Source: Patescibacteria group bacterium (GTDB lineage Bacteria > Patescibacteriota > WWE3 > 0-14-0-20-40-13). Taken from it: 64,000 bases of DNA. Positions 10,179 through 21,315 of this stretch are shown piece after piece (positions within the stretch are counted from its first letter, which is position 1; the number at the start of each line of letters is the position of its first letter). Location: the NCBI GenBank assembly GCA_018896215.1, contig JAHINB010000013.1:17946-81945 (forward strand), in the 5' to 3' direction. The notes beneath the pieces are model-generated. The model saw only the letters and a program-made list of their open reading frames with translations. It had not been told where the DNA came from and did not search any database. Both the position numbers and the translations under genes were made by a program.

Positions 10179-10899
10179 TGTTTTCTATCTCTTCTGCTAA
10201 CTTACTATTTCCACTTTGGACAATTGTTCCGTTTATCATTACATGGACAAAATCAGGTTTTAAAATTTTTAAGATTCGTGGGTAATGGGTAATTATAACA
10301 ACTCCAGTGTTCTTAAATGTTTTGATTTTCTCAAATATTGTTTTTTGTGCGCCAATATCTAAACCGCTGTCAATCTCATCCAAAATTGCATATTTAGGGT
10401 TCAAAACTGCCATTTGCAAAATTTCGCCTTTCTTTTTTTCGCCTCCGCTTGCACCCTCGTTTAAATTTCTTTCGGTAAATTCCTTTGCCATTCCCAACCT
10501 TTCCAGGTGACTCATTAATAATGTTCTAAATTTAATTGGGGGCAAATTGATACCAGCGATACTACCGTATGAGAGACGCAAAAATGATTCTAAGGAAACT
10601 CCGGGAACCTCGACTGGGTATTGAAAGGCTAAAAACAAGCCTAGCCTTGCTCGCGCGGTTGCATCAAGATTTAATAAACAAGTTTGTTTCTGACGAAATA
10701 GATCTTTCCCGTCAAGAGAAACTGATCCCTTTGTAACTGTAATTAGGGGATTACCAATAAGCGTTGTTGCCAAGGTGCTTTTTCCTGAACCATTTGGTCC
10801 CATAAGAGCATGAATTTCCCCACGGTTGATGTTGAGACTCACCCCTTTAAGGATTTCTTTTTCTCCAATTTTAGCGTACAGATTATTTATCTTTAGCAT
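10162..10899 (-). CDS. sufC: Fe-S cluster assembly ATPase SufC
   Basis: Walker [11 protein letters not shown], signature SGGEKK and Walker [11 protein letters not shown]. Confidence 0.85.
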
Positions 10900-10911
10900 A
10901 ATTCTTAATCT

Positions 10912-11175
10912 CTAATCAGCCACGGGACATTTGCACTCACCACAACCACAAGTACATTGAGCATCGTAATAGACTTCCCTTCCTTTTTTAATTCTTTTAA
11001 GTAAACCCGTTTTTGCAAGTTCCATTAAATGGTACGAAACCGTAGGTTGTGTCAATTTAAAATGGGACACAACCTCGGATACTGTTTTAGATTTTCCGCT
11101 TTGCACAAATTCGTAGATTTTAGATCTTGAATTATCCGAAATAGCTTTAAAGCAAGCCAAGCATTTTTTATTCAT
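10912..11175 (-). CDS. ArsR/SmtB-family winged-helix regulator with C-terminal Cys cluster (SufR-like)
   Basis: HTH SEVVSHFKLTQPTVSYHLMELAKTGLL plus a C-terminal CTCGCGECKC. It is the first gene of the suf cluster. Confidence 0.55.
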   Translation of the reverse strand: MNKKCLACFKAISDNSRSKIYEFVQSGKSKTVSEVVSHFKLTQPTVSYHLMELAKTGLLKRIKKGREVYYDAQCTCGCGECKCPVAD

Positions 11176-11270
11176 AACAAGATTAAAGAAAAATATTTCT
11201 ATTAATTTCCCCGACTAATGTCGGGGGCGTTACATATTTCCGAGCGCGGAAATCTATATTTTTTAAATAG
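11173..11270. repeat. copy of the dispersed structured leader repeat ('E-family')
   Basis: CATAACAAGATTAAAGAA.. then hairpin CCCCGAC-taat-GTCGGGG, then GCGTTACATA, then hairpin TTTCC-gagcgc-GGAAA, then TCTAT. It abuts the start codon of the ArsR-like gene and is near-identical in architecture to the copies inside the ribosomal operon. Confidence 0.6.
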
Positions 11271-11337
11271 AAACCCATCTATATATTAATCTGTTTGGAT
11301 AAAATAGTCAACAAGTGAGCGCTGTTGCAAATCTTCT

Positions 11338-11808
11338 TTACCTTTTGTTTTTGATGCCTTCAATCCGCCTAAAGATTTGCTGATCGGGATATTTTCCTAC
11401 AAGCATTCGGGAAAGCTGATTGTAGCTAGTAATGTCGTTATTCTTTTTAGCAAAGACCGTTCCGGCGTTTTTAATTTGCTCAATAGTCGAACGGTACGAG
11501 CTTTCGCTAAAAGAAAAAATTGGCAAAGGCAAATAGCTTATTCCCTGCCCTAGACATGCCTGCCTCTTTAAGGAATCTGCCCTAAGCTGATTTTGGAATT
11601 TTTCGGGAGTTTGCATTGCTTCTATCTGCTTGTAATGCTGCGGACCCTGAAATTCTATGGCAACTCCCAGTTGTGGGTAGTACCTGTCAATCTCAAGACC
11701 ATTAGTCCACAAGGGACGGGTATTATCTAGAGTCTTAAACCCTTTAAGGTAGTAGTCCAAAATTGTCTTGGCTAATTGTTCGAACAAGGAAACCGTAGTT
11801 ATTTGCAT
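11338..11808 (-). CDS. hypothetical protein, possible PD-(D/E)xK / DUF559-like nuclease fold
   Basis: 156 aa. LEIDRYYPQLGVAIEFQGPQHY resembles the D...(E/Q)xDG..H core of Vsr/DUF559-like endonucleases. Weak. Confidence 0.3.
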   Translation of the reverse strand: MQITTVSLFEQLAKTILDYYLKGFKTLDNTRPLWTNGLEIDRYYPQLGVAIEFQGPQHYKQIEAMQTPEKFQNQLRADSLKRQACLGQGISYLPLPIFSFSESSYRSTIEQIKNAGTVFAKKNNDITSYNQLSRMLVGKYPDQQIFRRIEGIKNKR

Positions 11809-11832
11809 AGTATTAATGGCTGTGCCACGTTT

Positions 11833-11943
11833 ATCTTAGCGATTTAGAATTGGTATCGTGTTCGCGTGATGCTCCGCCTTCGGCGGATCAAACGCGACCA
11901 TCGTAATCTCTAAGCTTCCCGATTAAATCGGGATCGCTAAGAT
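11833..11943 (-). ncRNA. candidate structured RNA element 3' of tRNA-Pro (function unknown)
   Basis: An 11-bp long-range stem (ATCTTAGCGAT at 11833-11843 pairs with ATCGCTAAGAT at 11933-11943). It encloses the hairpins CCGCC-UUCG-GGCGG and CCCGATT-AA-ATCGGG and a CGCGT...ACGCG stem. No ORF. Confidence 0.3.
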
Positions 11944-11949
11944 ATTACG

Positions 11950-12025
11950 TGGTCGGGGATGCCGGGCTCGAACCGGCGACCTCACGCACCCCATGCGTGC
12001 GCGCTACCAACTGCGCCAATCCCCG
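11950..12025 (-). tRNA. tRNA-Pro (anticodon GGG)
   Basis: Cloverleaf read by hand: acceptor CGGGGAT/ATCCCCG, U8, D-arm GCGC-AGTTGGTA-GCGC, anticodon stem CACGC/GCGTG with loop ATGGGGT, T-arm GCCGG-TTCGAGC-CCGGC, then A-CCA encoded. Confidence 0.75.
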
Positions 12026-12262
12026 CTACACTCTATCCTTTAAAAACCGTCTACCAAAACCAGTCTTAAAATACTGCTCTCTTTTTAAAGCCTTATACTT
12101 ATCTAAACAAGCCTCATAATATACTAGCGTTAAAGGTGCCCGAGACTTAGTCGCCTCAACCAAACCTTTGTTATGCATTTCTACTCTATTTTGCAAATCC
12201 TCTGTATATCCAACATAGTATTTCTCATCAATCTTGCTTTTTAAAACATAGGTGTAATGCAT
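12026..12262 (-). CDS. GIY-YIG nuclease-domain protein
   Basis: 78 aa with YTYVL...YYVGYTEDLQNRVEMHN (GIY-YIG core). Its stop codon abuts the tRNA-Pro 5' end. Confidence 0.65.
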   Translation of the reverse strand: MHYTYVLKSKIDEKYYVGYTEDLQNRVEMHNKGLVEATKSRAPLTLVYYEACLDKYKALKREQYFKTGFGRRFLKDRV

Positions 12263-12336
12263 ATGCTACCAACTGCCCTGCCCGCAACGCCTTCGCAAGC
12301 TTGGCTTGCGTGGCGGGCGTGGCGCCAATCCCCGCT
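12262..12336. repeat. partial direct duplication of the tRNA-Pro 5' half
   Basis: GCTACCAACTGC (12264-12275) and GCGCCAATCCCCGCTA (12321-12336) repeat tRNA segments 12003-12014 and 12013-12028. Together they bracket the GIY-YIG ORF. Confidence 0.7.
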
Positions 12337-12426
12337 AGAAAATGTTTCCTTGCGTCCTGAGCCTGTCGAAGGACAATTCCTATTCTATCCTTTTGCCTCC
12401 ACATTTTCCAGACCCGCTTTTCTTGT

Positions 12427-12450
12427 CATAGGGTCTGACCCTTAAACAAA
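12427..12450. repeat. GGGTC-N-GACCC boundary palindrome, inverted-orientation copy
   Basis: TTTGTTTAAGGGTCAGACCCTATG on the minus strand matches TTTGTCTAAGGGTCAGACCCTAAAACA at 15.86 and 18.76 kb. Confidence 0.55.
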
Positions 12451-12495
12451 ATATTCCTCATTTTAAAAAAGTCCTTCTGTTGTTATACTAAAAGT

Positions 12496-13002
12496 ATGTT
12501 AACAAACCAAATGCATCCCGATCAAAAAGTTGGAGTTTTTGTGGATGTCTCCAACATGTACTACAGCGCCAAAAATCTTCACAATTCAAAGGTAGACTTT
12601 GGGCAGGTTTTACAAATGGTACTGGGCAAGCGCAAACTCATCCGCGCCTTTGCCTATGTTATAAGAGCCAACATTGAACAGGAAAAGACTTTTTTTGAAG
12701 CGCTAGAAAAACGCGGCTTCGAAGTTCGTATTAAAGACTTGCAAGTTTTTTTGGGTGGCGAAAAAAAAGGTGATTGGGATGTAGGGCTTTGCATGGATGC
12801 TGTAAGACTCATCCCCAAAATAGACGCTCTAGTTTTAATTTCGGGAGATGGGGATTATACCGATTTGTTGGATTATGCCCGTTCGCAAGGAGTAAGGTGC
12901 GAAGTGGCTTCGTTTGGACGCAACACCTCTGGAAAATTAATCGAGCGCGCCGACAGTTTTTTTGATTTAGACTACTTTGCCAAAAATATCCTTTTAGCCT
13001 AG
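12496..13002 (+). CDS. NYN-domain (LabA-like, PIN-like) protein
   Basis: VGVFVDVSNMYYS...GDWDVGLCMDA...LISGDGDYTDL are the acidic-residue signature of NYN/DUF88. Confidence 0.65.
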   Translation: MLTNQMHPDQKVGVFVDVSNMYYSAKNLHNSKVDFGQVLQMVLGKRKLIRAFAYVIRANIEQEKTFFEALEKRGFEVRIKDLQVFLGGEKKGDWDVGLCMDAVRLIPKIDALVLISGDGDYTDLLDYARSQGVRCEVASFGRNTSGKLIERADSFFDLDYFAKNILLA

Positions 13003-13023
13003 AGTATTTTTTAAATAGCTAAG

Positions 13024-14778
13024 ATGAGAAGCTTTTACTTCCCAAAACAACTTATCATTCGGGCAGGGATTTTAGCTTTTGCCTTTACGGCAATTTCGTT
13101 TTTTGCTTACCACCTTTCGTTTTTAAACAGAGTAATTCCCAATGTTTACTTGGACGGTAAACGCATCAGCGGGATATCAATTGTTAAATTGCAACAAGAT
13201 CTTGGGTATCTTGATACTTATGATCCCGTAATTTCTTTTAGGGACGAGCCCTCAAAACAAGATTTTGTCGTTAAGGCATCGGATATTGGACTTTATTATA
13301 ATTCTCAAGAAACTATTAAAAAAGCGTTTTTACTTGGCAGAACCAGCAATTTTATTCAAGATAACTTAACAAAGTTTAACCTACTATTTAAGGGATATAA
13401 CCTGACCCCAGAGTATCTTGTAAATCAAGATCTTTTGGATTTAAAAATAAGCCAAATCCAAACTAAAGTAGAATCCCCTTTTTACAACGCTTACTTCTAC
13501 ATCTCTAATAACAAGCTCGAGATAGAGAAAGAAGTTTCGGGATTACGGCTTAACAAAAACAAATTAAAAGCTAGGATTTTAGAAAAATATTTAAGTTTTA
13601 ATTTTGTAAACGAGCCTCTTCCTATGGAACAATTTACTCCGGAGGTAACAACAGAAAACTTAACCCCTGTGAAAGAATTCGTCCAAAATATAGTTTTTAA
13701 TCCACCAGCGCTATTTTTTGAGAAAAAAGTTTATAAATTAACTCCCGAAAACATTTTAAAATCTGTTTTTCTAAAAATGGAATCGGGGGCAAACAAAGCC
13801 ACCGTTACCGTAAACACCGAAACGCTCTCCCCCATAATTGCAACAATTGCCGAAGAAATAAACACCCCACCTAAAGGAGAGATATTTTTAATGGAAAACG
13901 GCAAGGTAAGTAGCTTTAGACCAGCATCCAATGGCGTCGTAATTGATGAAGAAAAACTTTATAAAGATTTGGCAAGCGCGATTTTAGTAGATGACCCCAA
14001 GGCTAAAACTGTTACCATTCCGGTTCGCGAAACCAAAGTTTTAGCTAATAATGAATACGGTATAAAAGAATTGCTGGGAGAAGGCATATCTAAATTCGAA
14101 GGGTCTATAAGTGGCAGGGTTTTTAATATTGCTCTTGCTTCATCCAACCTCAACGGAACCTTAATTCCCCCTGGAGAGACATTCTCTTTTAATAAATCGG
14201 TAGGCGAAATTGATGCTACCCACGGGTTTACTTCTGCCTACATTATTTCCAAAGGGAGAACAGTACTGGGAGAAGGTGGCGGGGTTTGTCAAGTTTCTAC
14301 CACGCTTTTTCGCGCTGTCTTAAATTCGGGACTTCCAGTAGTTACTCGAGCCGCTCACGCCTATAGAGTTTCATATTACGAACAGGACGCTCCGGTAGGT
14401 CTTGATGCCACAATTTATCAGCCCACAGTGGATTTTAAATTTAAGAATGACACCGCAGGCTATATTTTGTTAACTGCTTCCGTTGACCAGAAAAACCTGA
14501 CTATGAATTTTAAGATTTATGGAACAAGTGATGGGAGAACCATAGAAATTACTAAGCCGATTATTACTTCCCAAACTCCGCCACCGCCAGCAGTTTATGA
14601 GGAAACTGATACATTACTTGTGGGACAAACTAAGCAGGTGGATTGGTCGGCTTGGGGAGCAAGTGTCAAATTTAGTCGTAAAGTGGTAAAAAATGAAAAA
14701 ATAATAATTGACGAAGAGTATATTAGCAATTATAGACCTTGGCGAGCTGTGTACTTGGTTGGTACCAAAGAACCTTAA
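13024..14778 (+). CDS. VanW-family protein (N-terminal TM anchor)
   Basis: 584 aa. C-terminal VanW core GFTSAYIISKGRTVLGEGGGVCQVSTTLFRAV...YYEQDAPVGLDATIY. Confidence 0.7.
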   Translation: MRSFYFPKQLIIRAGILAFAFTAISFFAYHLSFLNRVIPNVYLDGKRISGISIVKLQQDLGYLDTYDPVISFRDEPSKQDFVVKASDIGLYYNSQETIKKAFLLGRTSNFIQDNLTKFNLLFKGYNLTPEYLVNQDLLDLKISQIQTKVESPFYNAYFYISNNKLEIEKEVSGLRLNKNKLKARILEKYLSFNFVNEPLPMEQFTPEVTTENLTPVKEFVQNIVFNPPALFFEKKVYKLTPENILKSVFLKMESGANKATVTVNTETLSPIIATIAEEINTPPKGEIFLMENGKVSSFRPASNGVVIDEEKLYKDLASAILVDDPKAKTVTIPVRETKVLANNEYGIKELLGEGISKFEGSISGRVFNIALASSNLNGTLIPPGETFSFNKSVGEIDATHGFTSAYIISKGRTVLGEGGGVCQVSTTLFRAVLNSGLPVVTRAAHAYRVSYYEQDAPVGLDATIYQPTVDFKFKNDTAGYILLTASVDQKNLTMNFKIYGTSDGRTIEITKPIITSQTPPPPAVYEETDTLLVGQTKQVDWSAWGASVKFSRKVVKNEKIIIDEEYISNYRPWRAVYLVGTKEP

Positions 14779-15855: not shown

Positions 15856-15861
15856 TTTGTC

Positions 15862-15882
15862 TAAGGGTCAGACCCTAAAACA
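15862..15882. repeat. boundary palindrome TAAGGGTCAGACCCTAAAACA
   Basis: Identical 21-mer at 18764-18784. A 5-1-5 inverted repeat GGGTC-A-GACCC. Confidence 0.65.
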
Positions 15883-17785: not shown

Positions 17786-18766
17786 GAAATTCCTCCAAAA
17801 TTCGCGATTAATTCCAAAGTAGCTGACCTAATAGCGTTAATTGACTCCAACCGCCTCTTTATTAATTCCAAAAACATTCCCCCAATCGTACAACAGAATA
17901 TCGACCGCGTTAGTCTTTTAAAAAGTGCTTTATATTCCGCAAAAATTGAGGGCAACGAACTCCAAGAACACAACTTTAATTTTTATCCCAAAGATCAAAA
18001 GAAACTAGAAGTTTTAAACATCCAAAAAGCCATAAATTACATCAATAGCGAGATTACAGGTACAAAACCAGTGATTTTAGAAACTATTCTTACACTGCAA
18101 AAGATATCTATGGAAAACATAGTTCCAAATGCAGGAAAAATTAGAAGCGACAATTTGGCTATTTTTAATTCCGCTGGAGTTGCAGTTTATTTTGCCCCTC
18201 CCCCATCGGAACTTTCTATTTTTTTAGAGAAATTGATAAACTATATAAACTCATCAAGTGCAGAATCACCAATTATTGTTGCCTTAATAGCTCATCTAAT
18301 TCTAGAAAAAATCCACCCCTTTCAAGACGGCAATGGTAGGGTTGGAAGACTCTTAATTTATGCGGTTCTAAAAGCCAAAAGCTACAATTTTGGAGTCCCT
18401 GTTGTGTTAGAAGAAGAAATAAACAAAAGACGAGACGAATATTACTATCACCTAGACCAAGGATACAAAAATGTAGAGGACTATTTGTTTTTTATGCTCG
18501 AAATCTTTTATAACCAAACAGAAACTGTTAAAACCCAGCTAACTTATATTCCACAAGAAAACGATGTGGTTTTGTCTTTGGCGCCAAGGCAAGGAGAAAT
18601 TTACAACATTATTAAAGACCATCAACTGGTATCTCTTGATTTTATTCATAGGAGATTCGTAACAGTTCCAGCAAGAACCCTTCGTTACGATCTAAAGAAA
18701 TTACAAGAAAAGGGTTTGATCAACAAAACATCTTCCACTCGAGGAGCTTTCTACAGAGTTGTCTAA
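17783..18766 (+). CDS. Fic/Doc-family protein (Fido, adenylyltransferase-like)
   Basis: Canonical Fic motif HPFQDGNGRVGRLL. The C-terminus is winged-helix-like. Its stop TAA is the first 3 nt of the boundary palindrome. Confidence 0.8.
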   Translation: MEIPPKFAINSKVADLIALIDSNRLFINSKNIPPIVQQNIDRVSLLKSALYSAKIEGNELQEHNFNFYPKDQKKLEVLNIQKAINYINSEITGTKPVILETILTLQKISMENIVPNAGKIRSDNLAIFNSAGVAVYFAPPPSELSIFLEKLINYINSSSAESPIIVALIAHLILEKIHPFQDGNGRVGRLLIYAVLKAKSYNFGVPVVLEEEINKRRDEYYYHLDQGYKNVEDYLFFMLEIFYNQTETVKTQLTYIPQENDVVLSLAPRQGEIYNIIKDHQLVSLDFIHRRFVTVPARTLRYDLKKLQEKGLINKTSSTRGAFYRVV

Positions 18767-18784
18767 GGGTCAGACCCTAAAACA
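18764..18784. repeat. boundary palindrome TAAGGGTCAGACCCTAAAACA
   Basis: Exact copy of 15862-15882. Confidence 0.65.
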
Positions 18785-21240: not shown

Positions 21241-21315
21241 TGGTGACCTCACGGGGGATCGAACCCCGATTGACGACTTGAGAAGCCGCCGTCCTAACCA
21301 TTAGACGATGAGGCC
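21241..21315 (-). tRNA. tRNA-Glu (anticodon CTC)
   Basis: Acceptor GGCCTCA/TGAGGTC (one G-U pair), D-arm GTCT-AATGGTTA-GGAC, anticodon stem GCGGC/GTCGT with loop TTCTCAA, T-arm CGGGG-TTCGATC-CCCCG, then A-CCA encoded. Confidence 0.65.

What the first reader, a model, noticed from the sequence alone, without database searches (positions are those of the whole stretch)
11950..12336. GIY-YIG ORF inserted at the 5' end of tRNA-Pro(GGG), bracketed by a duplicated tRNA 5' half
A 78-aa GIY-YIG nuclease-domain ORF (12026-12262) ends exactly at the tRNA 5' boundary. Fifty-eight to seventy-five nt beyond its start codon, segments of the tRNA 5' half recur (GCTACCAACTGC at 12264; GCGCCAATCCCCGCTA at 12321, a 16/16 match to 12013-12028). 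This is the footprint expected when a small selfish element carrying a homing-endonuclease-like gene inserts into or next to a tRNA gene and regenerates the tRNA end. The solo GIY-YIG domain lacks a DNA-binding extension, so it may be decaying or may act with a partner.
Basis: seen in the sequence. Interest (0 to 1): 0.65.

Follow-up and report, generated by a model that had tools for sequence, protein, structure and literature searches.

The report
tRNA-gene-homing mini GIY-YIG nuclease cassette
A 78-amino-acid nuclease gene sits directly in front of a proline tRNA gene, behind a displaced, hairpin-interrupted copy of that tRNA's first 23 bases; the same layout recurs at dozens of different tRNA genes in uncultured (CPR) and some cultured bacteria, so it looks like an undescribed family of selfish elements that colonise tRNA genes without destroying them.

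Summary
A 78-aa GIY-YIG ORF (12026-12262, minus strand) ends exactly at base +1 of tRNA-Pro(GGG). tRNA bases 1-13 and 12-23 recur upstream of its ATG.

The layout is general. In 36 of 51 CPR loci encoding homologs, a same-strand tRNA follows the ORF (1.7% expected by chance), covering 16 anticodons. In 23 of 36, that tRNA's own 5' end recurs upstream (control 10/1186).

Close relatives carry the same tRNA-Pro with no ORF, hairpin or repeat. A second copy, inferred to be in the same genome, sits at tRNA-Pro(CGG).

The ORF is under purifying selection (dN/dS 0.04-0.15). In two other pairs it is far younger than its flanking host genes, which indicates horizontal transfer.

The protein is a minimal Slx1/UPF0213-type GIY-YIG domain and is not decaying. 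The palindrome belongs to a dispersed repeat family, about 70% of it solo, and hairpin type co-varies with ORF clade.

Best reading: a free-standing homing-endonuclease-like cassette that targets tRNA genes and keeps one intact copy. It resembles phage SegB and mitochondrial "mobile ORF" gene hybrids. I found no published description. The cleavage target and the hairpin's role remain untested.

The parts
11950..12025 (-). Intact tRNA-Pro(GGG) with encoded CCA. This is the functional copy lying immediately 3' of the ORF.
   Evidence: ARAGORN. Rfam RF00005 at 59.9 bits, E = 8.6e-12. Nearly identical tRNAs occur at the empty sites L083 and L084.
12026..12262 (-). 78-aa minimal GIY-YIG nuclease ORF of the Slx1/UPF0213 type. 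The TAG stop at 12026-12028 abuts tRNA +1.
   Evidence: ORF list. Pfam PF01541, E = 2e-15. 810 homologs, mostly 78 aa and from CPR bacteria. Conserved Y3, Y5, Y16, G18, R26, H30, E50, R61, E62. AF2 pLDDT 95.4. Foldseek finds 1zg2 and the Slx1 nuclease domain at TMq about 0.7. dN/dS is 0.065 against the paralog in L011.
12265..12276 (-). Distal piece of the displaced tRNA 5' fragment (tRNA nt 12-23, GCAGTTGGTAGC). It is followed by AT and then the ATG.
   Evidence: 12/12 exact repeat of 12003-12014. The same arrangement is seen in L011 and L088.
12277..12321 (-). 45-nt GC-rich imperfect palindrome ('HP'): CACGCCCGCCACGCAAGCCAAGCTTGCGAAGGCGTTGCGGGCAGG. It interrupts the displaced fragment in the D-arm and belongs to a dispersed repeat family.
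   Evidence: DNA fold of -15.9 kcal/mol, z = -3.0. It is 43-44/45 identical in L011 and L088 although the ORFs are saturated at synonymous sites. More than 120 metagenome loci carry the family motif. It is the only copy in the 64-kb window.
12322..12337 (-). Proximal piece of the displaced tRNA 5' fragment. tRNA nt 1-13 occupy 12322-12334, preceded by TAG at 12335-12337, as in the functional copy.
   Evidence: 16/16 exact repeat of 12013-12028.
12382..12410 (-). Weak promoter-like site (TGGAAA-17-TAGAAT). It overlaps AAAGGATAGA (12384-12393), which repeats the ORF's last codons, so it may be a relic of an earlier ORF 3' end. This assignment is tentative.
   Evidence: Promoter scan, 9/12 match, not above the shuffle expectation. 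10-nt repeat D6. Clearer ORF-3'-end relics lie upstream of the fragment in L013 and L018.

Best explanation
The segment 12026-12337 is one copy of a widespread, apparently undescribed family of free-standing, homing-endonuclease-like cassettes that live in tRNA genes. Each cassette encodes a minimal (78 aa) Slx1/UPF0213-type GIY-YIG nuclease. It sits between an intact tRNA gene on its 3' side and a displaced fragment of the same tRNA on its 5' side (here nt 1-23).

Proposed mechanism (inferred, not shown):
1. The nuclease breaks an unoccupied tRNA gene somewhere between the D-loop and the anticodon loop.
2. The break is repaired from an occupied allele.
3. The displaced 5' fragment and the 3' part of the intact tRNA act as the two homology arms.
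4. The ORF is therefore copied in while an intact tRNA is always regenerated.
5. Because tRNA sequences are conserved between species, the cassette can cross species boundaries.
6. When the resident tRNA is too diverged, repair is one-sided and leaves resident 5' and 3' fragments on both sides of 'ORF + tRNA'.

The direct repeats also explain precise loss, which gives clean empty sites, and the tandem arrays seen in other loci.

The GC-rich palindrome inside the dead fragment belongs to a dispersed repeat family whose type co-varies with the ORF clade. It is probably a cis-acting partner or substrate of this structure-specific-type nuclease, but its role is unresolved.

The ORF is most simply expressed from the promoter upstream of the displaced fragment. 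RNase P cleavage at tRNA +1 would then define the mRNA 3' end (inferred).
For: What is shown:
- Anatomy.
- The window ORF is intact and its motif residues are conserved.
- 36/51 CPR-type homolog loci have a same-strand tRNA starting -60 to +300 nt after the ORF, most within 20 nt. Chance expectation is 1.7%. Sixteen anticodons are represented, and more appear.
- 23/36 loci carry that tRNA's own first 9-34 nt upstream of the ATG, against 10/1186 in cross-locus controls.
- Presence/absence: L083 (neighbouring protein 82% identical) and L084/85 have the same tRNA-Pro(GGG) with no ORF, hairpin or repeat. L088 is occupied.
- A second copy, 83% identical at the protein level, sits at tRNA-Pro(CGG). 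Adjacent protein accessions suggest it is in the same MAGs.
- Purifying selection, dN/dS 0.04-0.15.
- Pseudogenised copies exist elsewhere.
- Horizontal transfer: ORF pS is 0.30-0.45 against 0.70-0.74 for the flanking host genes in L014/L023 and L051/L055. In L051/L055 the conserved block runs exactly from fragment +1 to the tRNA 3' end.
- Foreign versus resident copies: in L022 an ORF plus intact tRNA-Val(CAC) lies between the 5' and 3' pieces of another tRNA whose acceptor strands match each other. In L120, L100 and L146 the upstream fragments differ from the resident tRNA.
- About 12/43 loci also carry a 3' fragment of the tRNA downstream.
- The fold is closest to UPF0213 and to Slx1 structure-specific nucleases.
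- Published analogues: SegB cleaves tRNA gene regions, is enriched next to tRNAs, and drives tandem amplification (PMC2330249, PMC13096335). Mitochondrial mORFs create 'core / inserted end / endonuclease / native end' gene hybrids (PMC3630166).
Against: - No nuclease activity or target site has been demonstrated.
- The intact tRNA next to the ORF has the same sequence as empty-site tRNAs over nt 1-50. How the occupied allele escapes cutting is therefore unexplained.
- The junction position in the tRNA varies (nt 18-38 across loci). That fits imprecise break repair better than a single precise cleavage or insertion site.
- The protein has no DNA-binding domain, unlike every characterised free-standing GIY-YIG homing enzyme.
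- For the window copy itself there is no transfer signature, because only one species carries this copy and the comparison with L088 is saturated. There is also no downstream 3' fragment in the window (z = -0.4).
- The element-plus-tRNA block is inverted relative to its flanks in W compared with L083/84/88, and in L051 compared with L055. The simple homing model does not predict this.
- The hairpin splits the putative left homology arm, which should lower homing efficiency.
Confidence: 0.62

Rival explanations
1. REPtron-like system. The GIY-YIG protein's real job is to mobilise or process the dispersed GC-rich palindromes, as RAYT transposases do for REP elements. Under this reading the ORF plus hairpin is the autonomous unit. 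tRNA genes and their dead fragments are simply the preferred landing sites for hairpins, and the tRNA duplications are collateral damage. This overlaps with the best explanation rather than excluding it.
For: - Almost every tRNA-linked ORF has a hairpin within about 100 nt, yet about 70% of hairpins found by motif scan are solo.
- Hairpins nest inside hairpins, and up to two sit in one tRNA fragment.
- Hairpin family co-varies with ORF clade. The main clade has CCCGCCCGC...; the Gly clade has TCCGCC..GGCGGA plus CCCGCC..GGCGGG; the Ser clade has CCGCTCA..TGAGCGG; Bacteroidota have TCCCG..CGGGA.
- In L054 and L056 the Gly-clade hairpins accompany the ORF without a detectable tRNA fragment.
- The hairpin is 43-44/45 conserved between copies whose ORFs are saturated at synonymous sites.
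- The fold is closest to Slx1, which cuts branched and hairpin DNA.
- The hairpin occurs in both orientations, and on either side of the ORF, which favours a DNA-level role.
Against: - Solo hairpins show no consistent target-site duplication and no preference for sitting in larger stem-loops.
- There is no test of whether hairpin copy number tracks ORF presence across genomes.
- The window has only one hairpin in 64 kb.
- This reading does not by itself explain why the ORF ends at tRNA +1, or why ORF plus tRNA blocks move between hosts.
Confidence: 0.3
2. Purely local rearrangement. The ORF is a resident gene that happens to lie upstream of tRNA-Pro. The upstream fragment then arose by an in-situ tandem duplication (slippage or break repair, comparable to SegB-type segmental amplification) that a repeat later invaded. 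No inter-genomic mobility is involved.
For: - Tandem arrays of tRNA 5' parts occur without an ORF in each unit (L088, L149, L012).
- Relics of the ORF 3' end lie upstream of the fragment in L013 and L018, and weakly in the window.
- SegB produces such amplifications through tRNA-5'/segB-3' microhomology (PMC13096335).
Against: - It does not explain how homologous ORFs came to lie in front of at least 16-25 different tRNAs.
- It does not explain the empty sites in close relatives, the xenologous fragments (L022, L120), or ORFs that are much younger than their flanks.
Confidence: 0.12
3. RNA-level or housekeeping function. The small protein and the tRNA form a conserved operon, for example a tRNA-related factor. 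In this reading the upstream tRNA-like leader with its hairpin regulates processing or translation of the transcript.
For: - The stop codon abuts tRNA +1, so co-transcription and RNase P processing are plausible.
- Prokaryotic Slx1-like GIY-YIG domains are sometimes fused to a TrmH-like tRNA (Gm18) methyltransferase domain and to a COG4123 methyltransferase (PMC1564403).
- The hairpin lies 14-35 nt before the ATG in most loci.
Against: - Distribution among relatives is patchy, and there are pseudogenes and horizontal-transfer signatures.
- The hairpin occurs in either orientation, and sometimes 3' of the ORF.
- The partner tRNA differs from locus to locus.
- No Rfam family matches the leader.
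Confidence: 0.05
4. Scar of an integrase-mediated island or prophage integration at the tRNA (attL/attR repeats), or a chance repeat.
For: tRNA genes are classic integration sites, and direct repeats of tRNA sequence flank integrated elements (general knowledge).
Against: - There is no integrase. The whole insert is about 310 nt and encodes only a 78-aa nuclease domain.
- The repeat is the 5' part of the tRNA, not the 3' part.
- Chance is excluded by the collinear 16-mer and 12-mer and by recurrence in 23/36 loci.
Confidence: 0.02

Closest known systems
Phage T4/T6 SegB, a free-standing GIY-YIG homing endonuclease in the tRNA gene cluster
   Same: - It is a GIY-YIG nuclease gene that lies outside any intron and next to tRNA genes.
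- SegB cleaves within tRNA gene sequence and is preferentially inherited together with the tRNA region (PMC2330249).
- SegB homologs are statistically enriched next to tRNAs of many isotypes.
- SegB breaks generate tandem amplifications through microhomology between the tRNA 5' region and the segB 3' end (PMC13096335). This parallels the tRNA-5' arrays and ORF-3' relics seen here.
   Different: - SegB belongs to the larger I-TevI/Seg-type free-standing homing endonucleases, which carry extra DNA-binding elements (own knowledge; cf. PMC1564403), and lives in phage genomes. The protein here is a bare 78-aa Slx1/UPF0213-type domain in bacterial chromosomes. Foldseek gives TMq of about 0.7 to Slx1 but 0.51 to I-TevI. 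PHROG homing-endonuclease matches are only marginal (E about 1e-3).
- I know of no report that SegB is accompanied by a displaced tRNA fragment or a dedicated palindromic repeat.
Mobile endonuclease ORFs (mORFs) of fungal mitochondria that create gene hybrids (Allomyces atp6; Glomus atp6/atp9/cox2/nad3)
   Same: The architecture is a free-standing endonuclease ORF lying between a functional gene end and a displaced, duplicated end of the same gene. One copy can be foreign and the other native, so the host gene stays functional after invasion (PMC3630166). L022, L120 and L038 show the same logic for tRNAs.
   Different: - The target here is a 76-nt RNA gene, not a protein gene.
- The duplicated part is usually the 5' end.
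- The endonuclease is a minimal domain.
- The displaced fragment carries GC-rich palindromes.
- The hosts are bacteria.
UPF0213 / prokaryotic Slx1-like standalone GIY-YIG proteins (BH0048 1zg2, EF2693 1ywl; COG2827-type)
   Same: These are the best sequence and structure matches. 1zg2 matches at E = 9e-6 by sequence and is the top Foldseek hit, followed by Slx1 nuclease domains. They share the same minimal single-domain build, which has been described as the ancestral GIY-YIG form (PMC1564403).
   Different: - I found no published function, and no reported tRNA-gene linkage, for these proteins.
- Identity is only about 32% in the Foldseek alignment.
- No NCBIfam model matches the window protein.
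- Within the hits there is also a sister clade that lacks both tRNA and hairpin.
REP elements with their RAYT transposase (REPtrons)
   Same: A dispersed short GC-rich palindrome family is mostly solo, while the gene copies are flanked by cognate palindromes. Palindrome type co-varies with protein clade. The REPtron comparison itself rests on my own knowledge.
   Different: RAYTs are HUH/Y1 enzymes, not GIY-YIG. REPtrons are not tied to tRNA genes and do not duplicate host genes.
GIY-YIG ORFs in non-intron insertion sequences of CPR rRNA genes
   Same: CPR genomes carry GIY-YIG ORFs inserted in structural RNA genes, outside group I/II introns, often at the tops or bases of stem-loops (PMC11270868).
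   Different: [quoted passage not shown]

Membership tests
GIY-YIG nuclease superfamily (Pfam PF01541) | Profile match above the curated threshold | tested here: met
   57.2 bits against a cut-off of 22.6, E = 2.1e-15, covering residues 1-69.
GIY-YIG nuclease superfamily (Pfam PF01541) | Conserved motif residues: the Tyr of 'GIY', the Tyr-x-Gly of 'YIG', the catalytic Arg, and the metal-binding Glu | tested here: met
   Y5, Y16, G18, R61 and E62 are invariant. Y3, R26, H30 and E50 are at least 90% conserved across 45 homologs. Assigning these residues to catalytic roles is by homology only.
GIY-YIG nuclease superfamily (Pfam PF01541) | The alpha/beta GIY-YIG fold | tested here: met
   The AF2 model has pLDDT 95.4 with order beta-beta-alpha-beta-alpha-alpha. 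Foldseek matches 1zg2, Slx1 (rmsd 2-3 A) and the I-TevI catalytic domain.
GIY-YIG nuclease superfamily (Pfam PF01541) | Endonuclease activity | not testable with these tools
   This needs biochemistry.
UPF0213 / prokaryotic Slx1-like standalone GIY-YIG | A single minimal domain with no accessory domain, and nearest relatives among UPF0213/Slx1 | tested here: met
   78 aa with no other Pfam domain. The best PDB sequence hits are 1zg2 and 1ywl. The best structural hits are 1zg2 and then Slx1.
Free-standing homing endonuclease genes (Seg / mORF type) | The nuclease ORF is not inside an intron or intein | tested here: met
   Rfam finds no group I/II intron at E <= 1 in 10500-13500 or in 8 related loci. 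The ORF lies between a tRNA fragment and a complete tRNA.
Free-standing homing endonuclease genes (Seg / mORF type) | Occupied and empty alleles of the same site exist among relatives | tested here: met
   W and L088 are occupied. L083 and L084/L085 are empty, with a near-identical tRNA-Pro(GGG).
Free-standing homing endonuclease genes (Seg / mORF type) | Horizontal spread: the element is younger than the host flanks | tested here: inconclusive
   This is met for other family members (L014/L023 and L051/L055: ORF pS 0.30-0.45 against flanks 0.70-0.74). It cannot be assessed for the window copy, because only one species carries it and W-L088 is saturated.
Free-standing homing endonuclease genes (Seg / mORF type) | Site-specific cleavage of the empty allele, with the occupied allele resistant | not testable with these tools
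The intact tRNA beside the ORF is identical to empty-site tRNAs over nt 1-50, so how resistance would arise is unexplained.
Free-standing homing endonuclease genes (Seg / mORF type) | A separate DNA-binding module attached to the catalytic domain, as in I-TevI and SegA-G | tested here: not met
   The protein is the bare 78-aa catalytic domain, and this length is conserved across the family.
Integrase-type genomic island at a tRNA attB | A tyrosine or serine recombinase gene, with flanking repeats made of the tRNA 3' end | tested here: not met
   There is no recombinase. The insert is about 310 nt, and the repeat is the tRNA 5' part.
Group I intron in a tRNA gene | An intron ribozyme structure between two non-overlapping exons | tested here: not met
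   No RF00028-type match. tRNA nt 1-23 are present twice rather than split once.
REPtron (REP + RAYT) | A dispersed palindromic repeat family with cognate copies next to the gene | tested here: met
   More than 120 loci carry the hairpin motif. 18 of 81 hairpins lie within 50 nt of a GIY-YIG ORF and about 56 are solo.
REPtron (REP + RAYT) | An HUH/Y1 (IS200/IS605-like) transposase | tested here: not met
   The protein is GIY-YIG, not HUH.
MITE | Terminal inverted repeats plus a target-site duplication of fixed length | tested here: inconclusive
   The element is itself a palindrome. Direct repeats of 5 nt or more flank 5/56 solo copies against 2.7% in controls, and their length is not consistent.

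The most novel reading that the evidence does not exclude
The 78-aa Slx1-like nuclease and its clade-specific GC-rich palindrome form a two-part mobile system that recognises DNA structure rather than sequence. The structures would be hairpin or cruciform DNA, and the stem-loops that tRNA genes can extrude. The system uses universally conserved tRNA genes both as targets and as portable homology arms, and it carries a replacement tRNA. In effect it would be a cross-phylum gene drive on tRNA genes, run by the smallest known homing-type nuclease. The solo palindromes scattered through CPR genomes would be its non-autonomous derivatives.
Probability: 0.3. Interest if true: 0.88.

Novelty: new variant of a known kind. 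Interest (0 to 1): 0.72.

Why it matters
- It would add a common but overlooked class of mobile element to bacterial chromosomes. There are hundreds of loci in a small sample, and 5,820 protein clusters at 50% identity match the broader GIY-YIG family at E <= 1e-3.
- It would give a first biological context to the 'UPF0213 / standalone Slx1-like' GIY-YIG proteins, which have no assigned function.
- It would explain many tRNA gene fragments, pseudo-tRNAs and assembly breaks in CPR genomes.
- It shows how a selfish gene can invade an essential single-copy RNA gene in a streamlined genome without killing the host.
- tRNA sequence is shared between species, so the strategy offers a ready route for horizontal spread.
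- A 78-aa nuclease that finds tRNA genes or hairpins would also be of practical interest.
- Related copies occur in cultured Bacteroidota (Pedobacter, Lacibacter), which makes the mechanism experimentally testable.

Tried and rejected
- **Other copies in the window.** tblastn and blastn-short found no second ORF and no second hairpin. The second tRNA (Glu-CTC, 21241-21315) is unoccupied.
- **Known RNA families.** Rfam at E <= 1 across 10500-13500 and across 8 related loci found only tRNAs, with no intron, ribozyme or leader family.
- **Protein family libraries.** NCBIfam gave no hit. PHROGs and PADLOC gave only marginal 'homing endonuclease' N-terminal matches.
- **A 3' tRNA fragment downstream of the window tRNA.** Smith-Waterman against shuffles gave z = -0.4, so none is present, although about 12/43 other loci have one.
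- **Target-site duplications, or insertion into larger stem-loops, for solo hairpins.** Neither was significantly above shuffled-flank controls.
- **Strict ORF-clade to tRNA-identity correspondence.** This holds only partly. The Pro, Gly, Asn and some Phe/Gln copies cluster, but the 78-aa tree is poorly resolved.
- **Promoter scan.** The matches are no better than shuffles. The idea that the ORF 3' end (TAGAAT) supplies the tRNA promoter remains untested.
- **Viral contigs.** Only 7 weak-to-moderate hits, 2 of them with a tRNA downstream. I see no evidence that phages are the main vehicle.
- **Literature.** Searches combined GIY-YIG with tRNA gene, CPR, Patescibacteria, YhbQ, pseudo-tRNA and adjacency phrases. 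None returned a description of this arrangement.
- **Rejected explanations.** An integrase island scar, a group I intron and a chance repeat were all considered and rejected (see the membership tests).
Full report
**1. What is in the window**

All features are on the minus strand. tRNA-Pro(GGG) occupies 11950-12025 (ARAGORN; Rfam 59.9 bits). A 78-aa ORF runs from 12262 to 12026, and its TAG stop directly abuts tRNA base +1. It matches Pfam GIY-YIG at 57.2 bits.

Read 5' to 3', the sequence upstream of the ATG is:
- TAG plus tRNA nt 1-13 (12337-12322)
- a 45-nt GC-rich imperfect palindrome (12321-12277)
- tRNA nt 12-23 (12276-12265)
- AT, then the ATG

Both tRNA pieces are exact repeats of the functional copy, 16/16 and 12/12. 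So the 'two segments' are a single displaced tRNA 5' fragment (nt 1-23) interrupted in the D-arm by a palindrome. As single-stranded DNA the palindrome folds at -15.9 kcal/mol, z = -3.0.

The 700-nt region is 99.7% identical or better in 10 independent assemblies of this Candidatus Parcubacteria species. The 64-kb window has no second ORF copy and no second hairpin. Its other tRNA (Glu-CTC) is unoccupied.

**2. The protein**

A word-indexed search returned 810 homologs. Almost all are 78-82 aa and come from CPR/Patescibacteria. An exhaustive search found 5,820 clusters at 50% identity with E <= 1e-3.

- Residues Y5, Y16, G18, P43, R61, E62, K66 and G70 are invariant. Y3, R26, H30 and E50 are at least 90% conserved.
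- The AlphaFold model is confident (pLDDT 95.4).
- Its best structural matches are the UPF0213 protein 1zg2 and the nuclease domain of Slx1 (TMq 0.67-0.71, rmsd 2-3 A). The I-TevI catalytic domain scores lower, at TMq 0.51.
- By sequence, the only solved relatives are UPF0213 proteins BH0048 and EF2693.
- Pairwise dN/dS between family members is 0.04-0.15.

The ORF is therefore an intact, selected, minimal Slx1/UPF0213-type GIY-YIG domain. It is not a decaying remnant.

**3. The architecture is a family trait**

A scan of one genome per species returned 71 loci encoding relatives. I separated out the 51 CPR-type loci.

- In 36 of them a same-strand tRNA starts between -60 and +300 nt from the ORF end, most within 20 nt. 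The tRNA density of the same loci predicts 1.7%. Sixteen anticodons are represented.
- In 23 of those 36, the first 9-34 nt of that same tRNA recur within 250 nt upstream of the ATG. Cross-locus controls give 10/1186.
- In the main clade, the upstream fragment is interrupted at tRNA nt 5-22, mostly in the D-stem or D-loop. The interrupting element is a palindrome with conserved arms CCCGCC(C/T)GC...GC(G/A)GGC(G/A)GG. After it the tRNA sequence resumes up to nt 18-38, followed by 2-20 nt and the ATG.

Variants exist:
- A hairpin-bearing fragment copy between the ORF and the tRNA (L017, L020, L034).
- Hairpin-bearing pseudo-tRNAs downstream of the intact tRNA (L012, L093).
- A mirror arrangement of tRNA, ORF, then a 3' fragment with a hairpin at position 37/38 (L038).
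- A hairpin at the very 5' edge of an intact tRNA-Lys with no duplication (L015, L026, L153).
- Tandem arrays of tRNA 5' parts (L088, L149).

Some copies are pseudogenes (L024/25, L059, L064). A sister clade of ORFs ending in GKRYLKNRL has neither a tRNA nor a hairpin nearby.

Related ORFs in Bacteroidota, including the cultured Pedobacter zeae and Lacibacter cauensis, lie between an intact tRNA and a pseudo-copy. In that pseudo-copy the anticodon arm carries, or is replaced by, a TCCCG...CGGGA hairpin.

**4. Evidence for mobility**

(a) *Empty sites.* Homologs of the neighbouring 156-aa protein led to syntenic loci. L083 (82% identity) and L084/85 (65%) have a near-identical tRNA-Pro(GGG) with no ORF, hairpin or repeat. 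L088 (60%) is occupied by a homologous hairpin plus ORF.

(b) *A second copy.* P0002 (83% identity) sits in the same architecture at tRNA-Pro(CGG). Its hairpin is 44/45 identical to the window's. Its protein accessions fall within about 120 of those of the window protein in two different MAGs, so I infer that both copies are in one genome.

(c) *Horizontal transfer.* These signatures come from other family members, not from the window copy.
- For L014/L023 (tRNA-Asn), ORF pS is 0.30 while the adjacent host gene has pS 0.70.
- For L051/L055 (tRNA-Gly), the ORF region has pS 0.32-0.45. Four flanking genes have pS 0.70-0.74 and only 42-54% protein identity.
- In L051/L055 the conserved block runs exactly from fragment +1 to the tRNA 3' end.

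(d) *Foreign versus resident copies.*
- In L022, an ORF plus an intact tRNA-Val(CAC) lies between the 5' piece (nt 1-27) and the 3' piece (nt 38-76) of a different tRNA. The acceptor strands of those two pieces pair with each other, not with the intact tRNA.
- In L120, L100 and L146, the upstream fragment has the same tRNA identity as the functional copy (same anticodon in L120) but differs from it in stem sequences.
- About 12 of 43 loci also keep a 3' fragment downstream of the intact tRNA. The window does not.

**5. The palindrome**

I scanned metagenomes with an exact-pattern motif for the window-type hairpin.

- 18 lie within 50 nt of a GIY-YIG ORF that has a tRNA on its other side.
- 7 sit in or next to tRNA fragments without an ORF.
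- About 56 are solo and intergenic.

Other properties:
- Hairpins nest within hairpins (L027, L037, L104, L112, L139), and two can occupy one tRNA fragment (L092, L147).
- They occur in both orientations.
- Solo copies show no consistent target-site duplication and no preference for larger stem-loops.
- The three tRNA-Pro elements share a hairpin that is 43-44/45 identical, although their ORFs are saturated at synonymous sites.
- Hairpin family co-varies with ORF clade. The Gly clade carries two different conserved hairpins after tRNA nt 34. The Ser clade carries CCGCTCA...TGAGCGG hairpins. Bacteroidota carry TCCCG...CGGGA. In L054 and L056, the Gly-clade hairpins accompany the ORF without a detectable tRNA fragment.

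This points to a specific ORF-hairpin relationship. Given the orientation independence and the Slx1-like fold, it most likely operates at the DNA level. Its nature is not established.

**6. Most likely mechanism**

This section is inference. The cassette behaves like a free-standing homing-endonuclease gene of the SegB or mitochondrial-mORF kind.

1. A break in an unoccupied tRNA gene is repaired from an occupied allele.
2. The displaced 5' fragment and the 3' part of the intact tRNA provide the homology.
3. The ORF is gained and a whole tRNA is always restored.
4. With a diverged resident tRNA, one-sided invasion plus end joining leaves resident fragments on both sides, as in L022.
5. Recombination between the direct repeats explains clean loss and tandem arrays.

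Several observations remain unexplained:
- How the intact tRNA beside the ORF avoids being cut.
- Why the junction varies between nt 18 and 38.
- Why the block is inverted relative to its flanks in W compared with L083/84/88, and in L051 compared with L055.
- What the hairpin does.

The main alternative overlaps with this model. In it, the nuclease's primary substrate is the palindrome family, in a REPtron-like arrangement.

**7. Comparison with what is known**

- SegB is the closest functional analogue. It is a GIY-YIG enzyme that cleaves tRNA gene regions, is enriched beside tRNAs, and causes tandem amplification by microhomology (PMC2330249, PMC13096335). However, it is a larger Seg-type phage enzyme of the I-TevI lineage.
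- Fungal mitochondrial mORFs give the closest architectural analogue, namely gene hybrids with a displaced native end (PMC3630166).
- The protein itself belongs with the UPF0213 / prokaryotic Slx1-like proteins, which have no assigned function. Their occasional fusions to a TrmH-like tRNA methyltransferase domain and to a COG4123 methyltransferase have been noted (PMC1564403).
- Work on CPR rRNA insertions mentions sparse non-intron GIY-YIG ORFs (PMC11270868).
- A 2025 preprint on Patescibacteria tRNA genes covers only group I introns.
- None of my searches returned a description of this arrangement. Absence from the searchable library is not proof of absence.

**8. Verdict**

I rate the feature a new variant of a known kind: a free-standing homing-endonuclease-type element that targets tRNA genes in bacterial chromosomes, has a minimal nuclease, and is associated with a palindromic repeat family. 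My confidence in the general reading is about 0.6. The cleavage target and the hairpin's role need experiments.

Noticed in passing
window 12431-12447 (+), 15859-15875 (-), 18761-18777 (-): A palindromic motif, TTAGGGTCTGACCCTTA(A/G)AC, occurs three times in the window, with none expected by chance. It looks like an operator or other protein-binding site and is unrelated to the element.
   Followed up: partly
window 11832-11944: Directly 3' of tRNA-Pro lies a perfect 12-nt inverted repeat (TATCTTAGCGAT / ATCGCTAAGATA). It encloses two small GC hairpins, TCCCGATTTAATCGGGA and TCCGCCGAAGGCGGA. Their arm types match the hairpins seen beside GIY-YIG ORFs in Bacteroidota and in the Gly clade.
   Followed up: no
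window 12354-12374: A small palindrome, GTCCTTCGACAGGCTCAGGAC, lies between the promoter-like site and the displaced tRNA fragment. A similar GTCCTGAGC...GTCGAAGGAC element occurs downstream of the tRNA in L026. It may be a second short repeat family.
   Followed up: no
window 11338-11808 (-): The 156-aa ORF next to the tRNA has only weak restriction-endonuclease-like (PD-(D/E)xK-type) hits and just 7 homologs in 5.8 billion proteins. All of the homologs I looked up lie in the same ArsR-SufC neighbourhood.
   Followed up: partly
L083 1311-1841: The empty-site relative carries a 23S_rRNA_IVP-family ORF between the NYN gene and tRNA-Pro, the position where the window has the GIY-YIG cassette. 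This intergenic spot may be a hotspot for small accessory ORFs.
   Followed up: no
window 11950-12337 compared with L083/L084/L088; L051 compared with L055 (2886-3340): The block from displaced fragment to tRNA 3' end is inverted relative to the flanking host genes between related genomes. This was so in both comparisons I examined. The simple homing model does not explain it.
   Followed up: partly
L088 1405-2120 (minus strand): There are three tandem copies of a unit made of 103 nt of tRNA-upstream sequence plus tRNA nt 1-18, with the breakpoint at D-loop G18/G19. The ORF and hairpin sit in the first unit. This suggests a recurrent break site in the D-loop.
   Followed up: partly
ORF 3' ends in many loci, e.g. 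L020, L022 and L035; window 12029-12045: The conserved last codons K-D-R-I-stop (AAAGATAGAATAtaa) contain a -10-like TAGAAT 4-10 nt before tRNA +1. The element might therefore supply a promoter for the tRNA. This is untested and is confounded by codon usage.
   Followed up: no
L062-L080 (Bacteroidota: Pedobacter, Lacibacter, Ferruginibacter, Chitinophaga): Related GIY-YIG ORFs in cultured Bacteroidota lie between an intact tRNA and a hairpin-bearing pseudo-copy of it. These organisms offer experimentally tractable systems.
   Followed up: partly
L036, L040-L043, L045, L048, L050, L052: A sister clade of small GIY-YIG ORFs (C-terminus ...GKRYLKNRL) has no adjacent tRNA and no hairpin. It would be a useful natural control for what confers tRNA linkage.
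   Followed up: no
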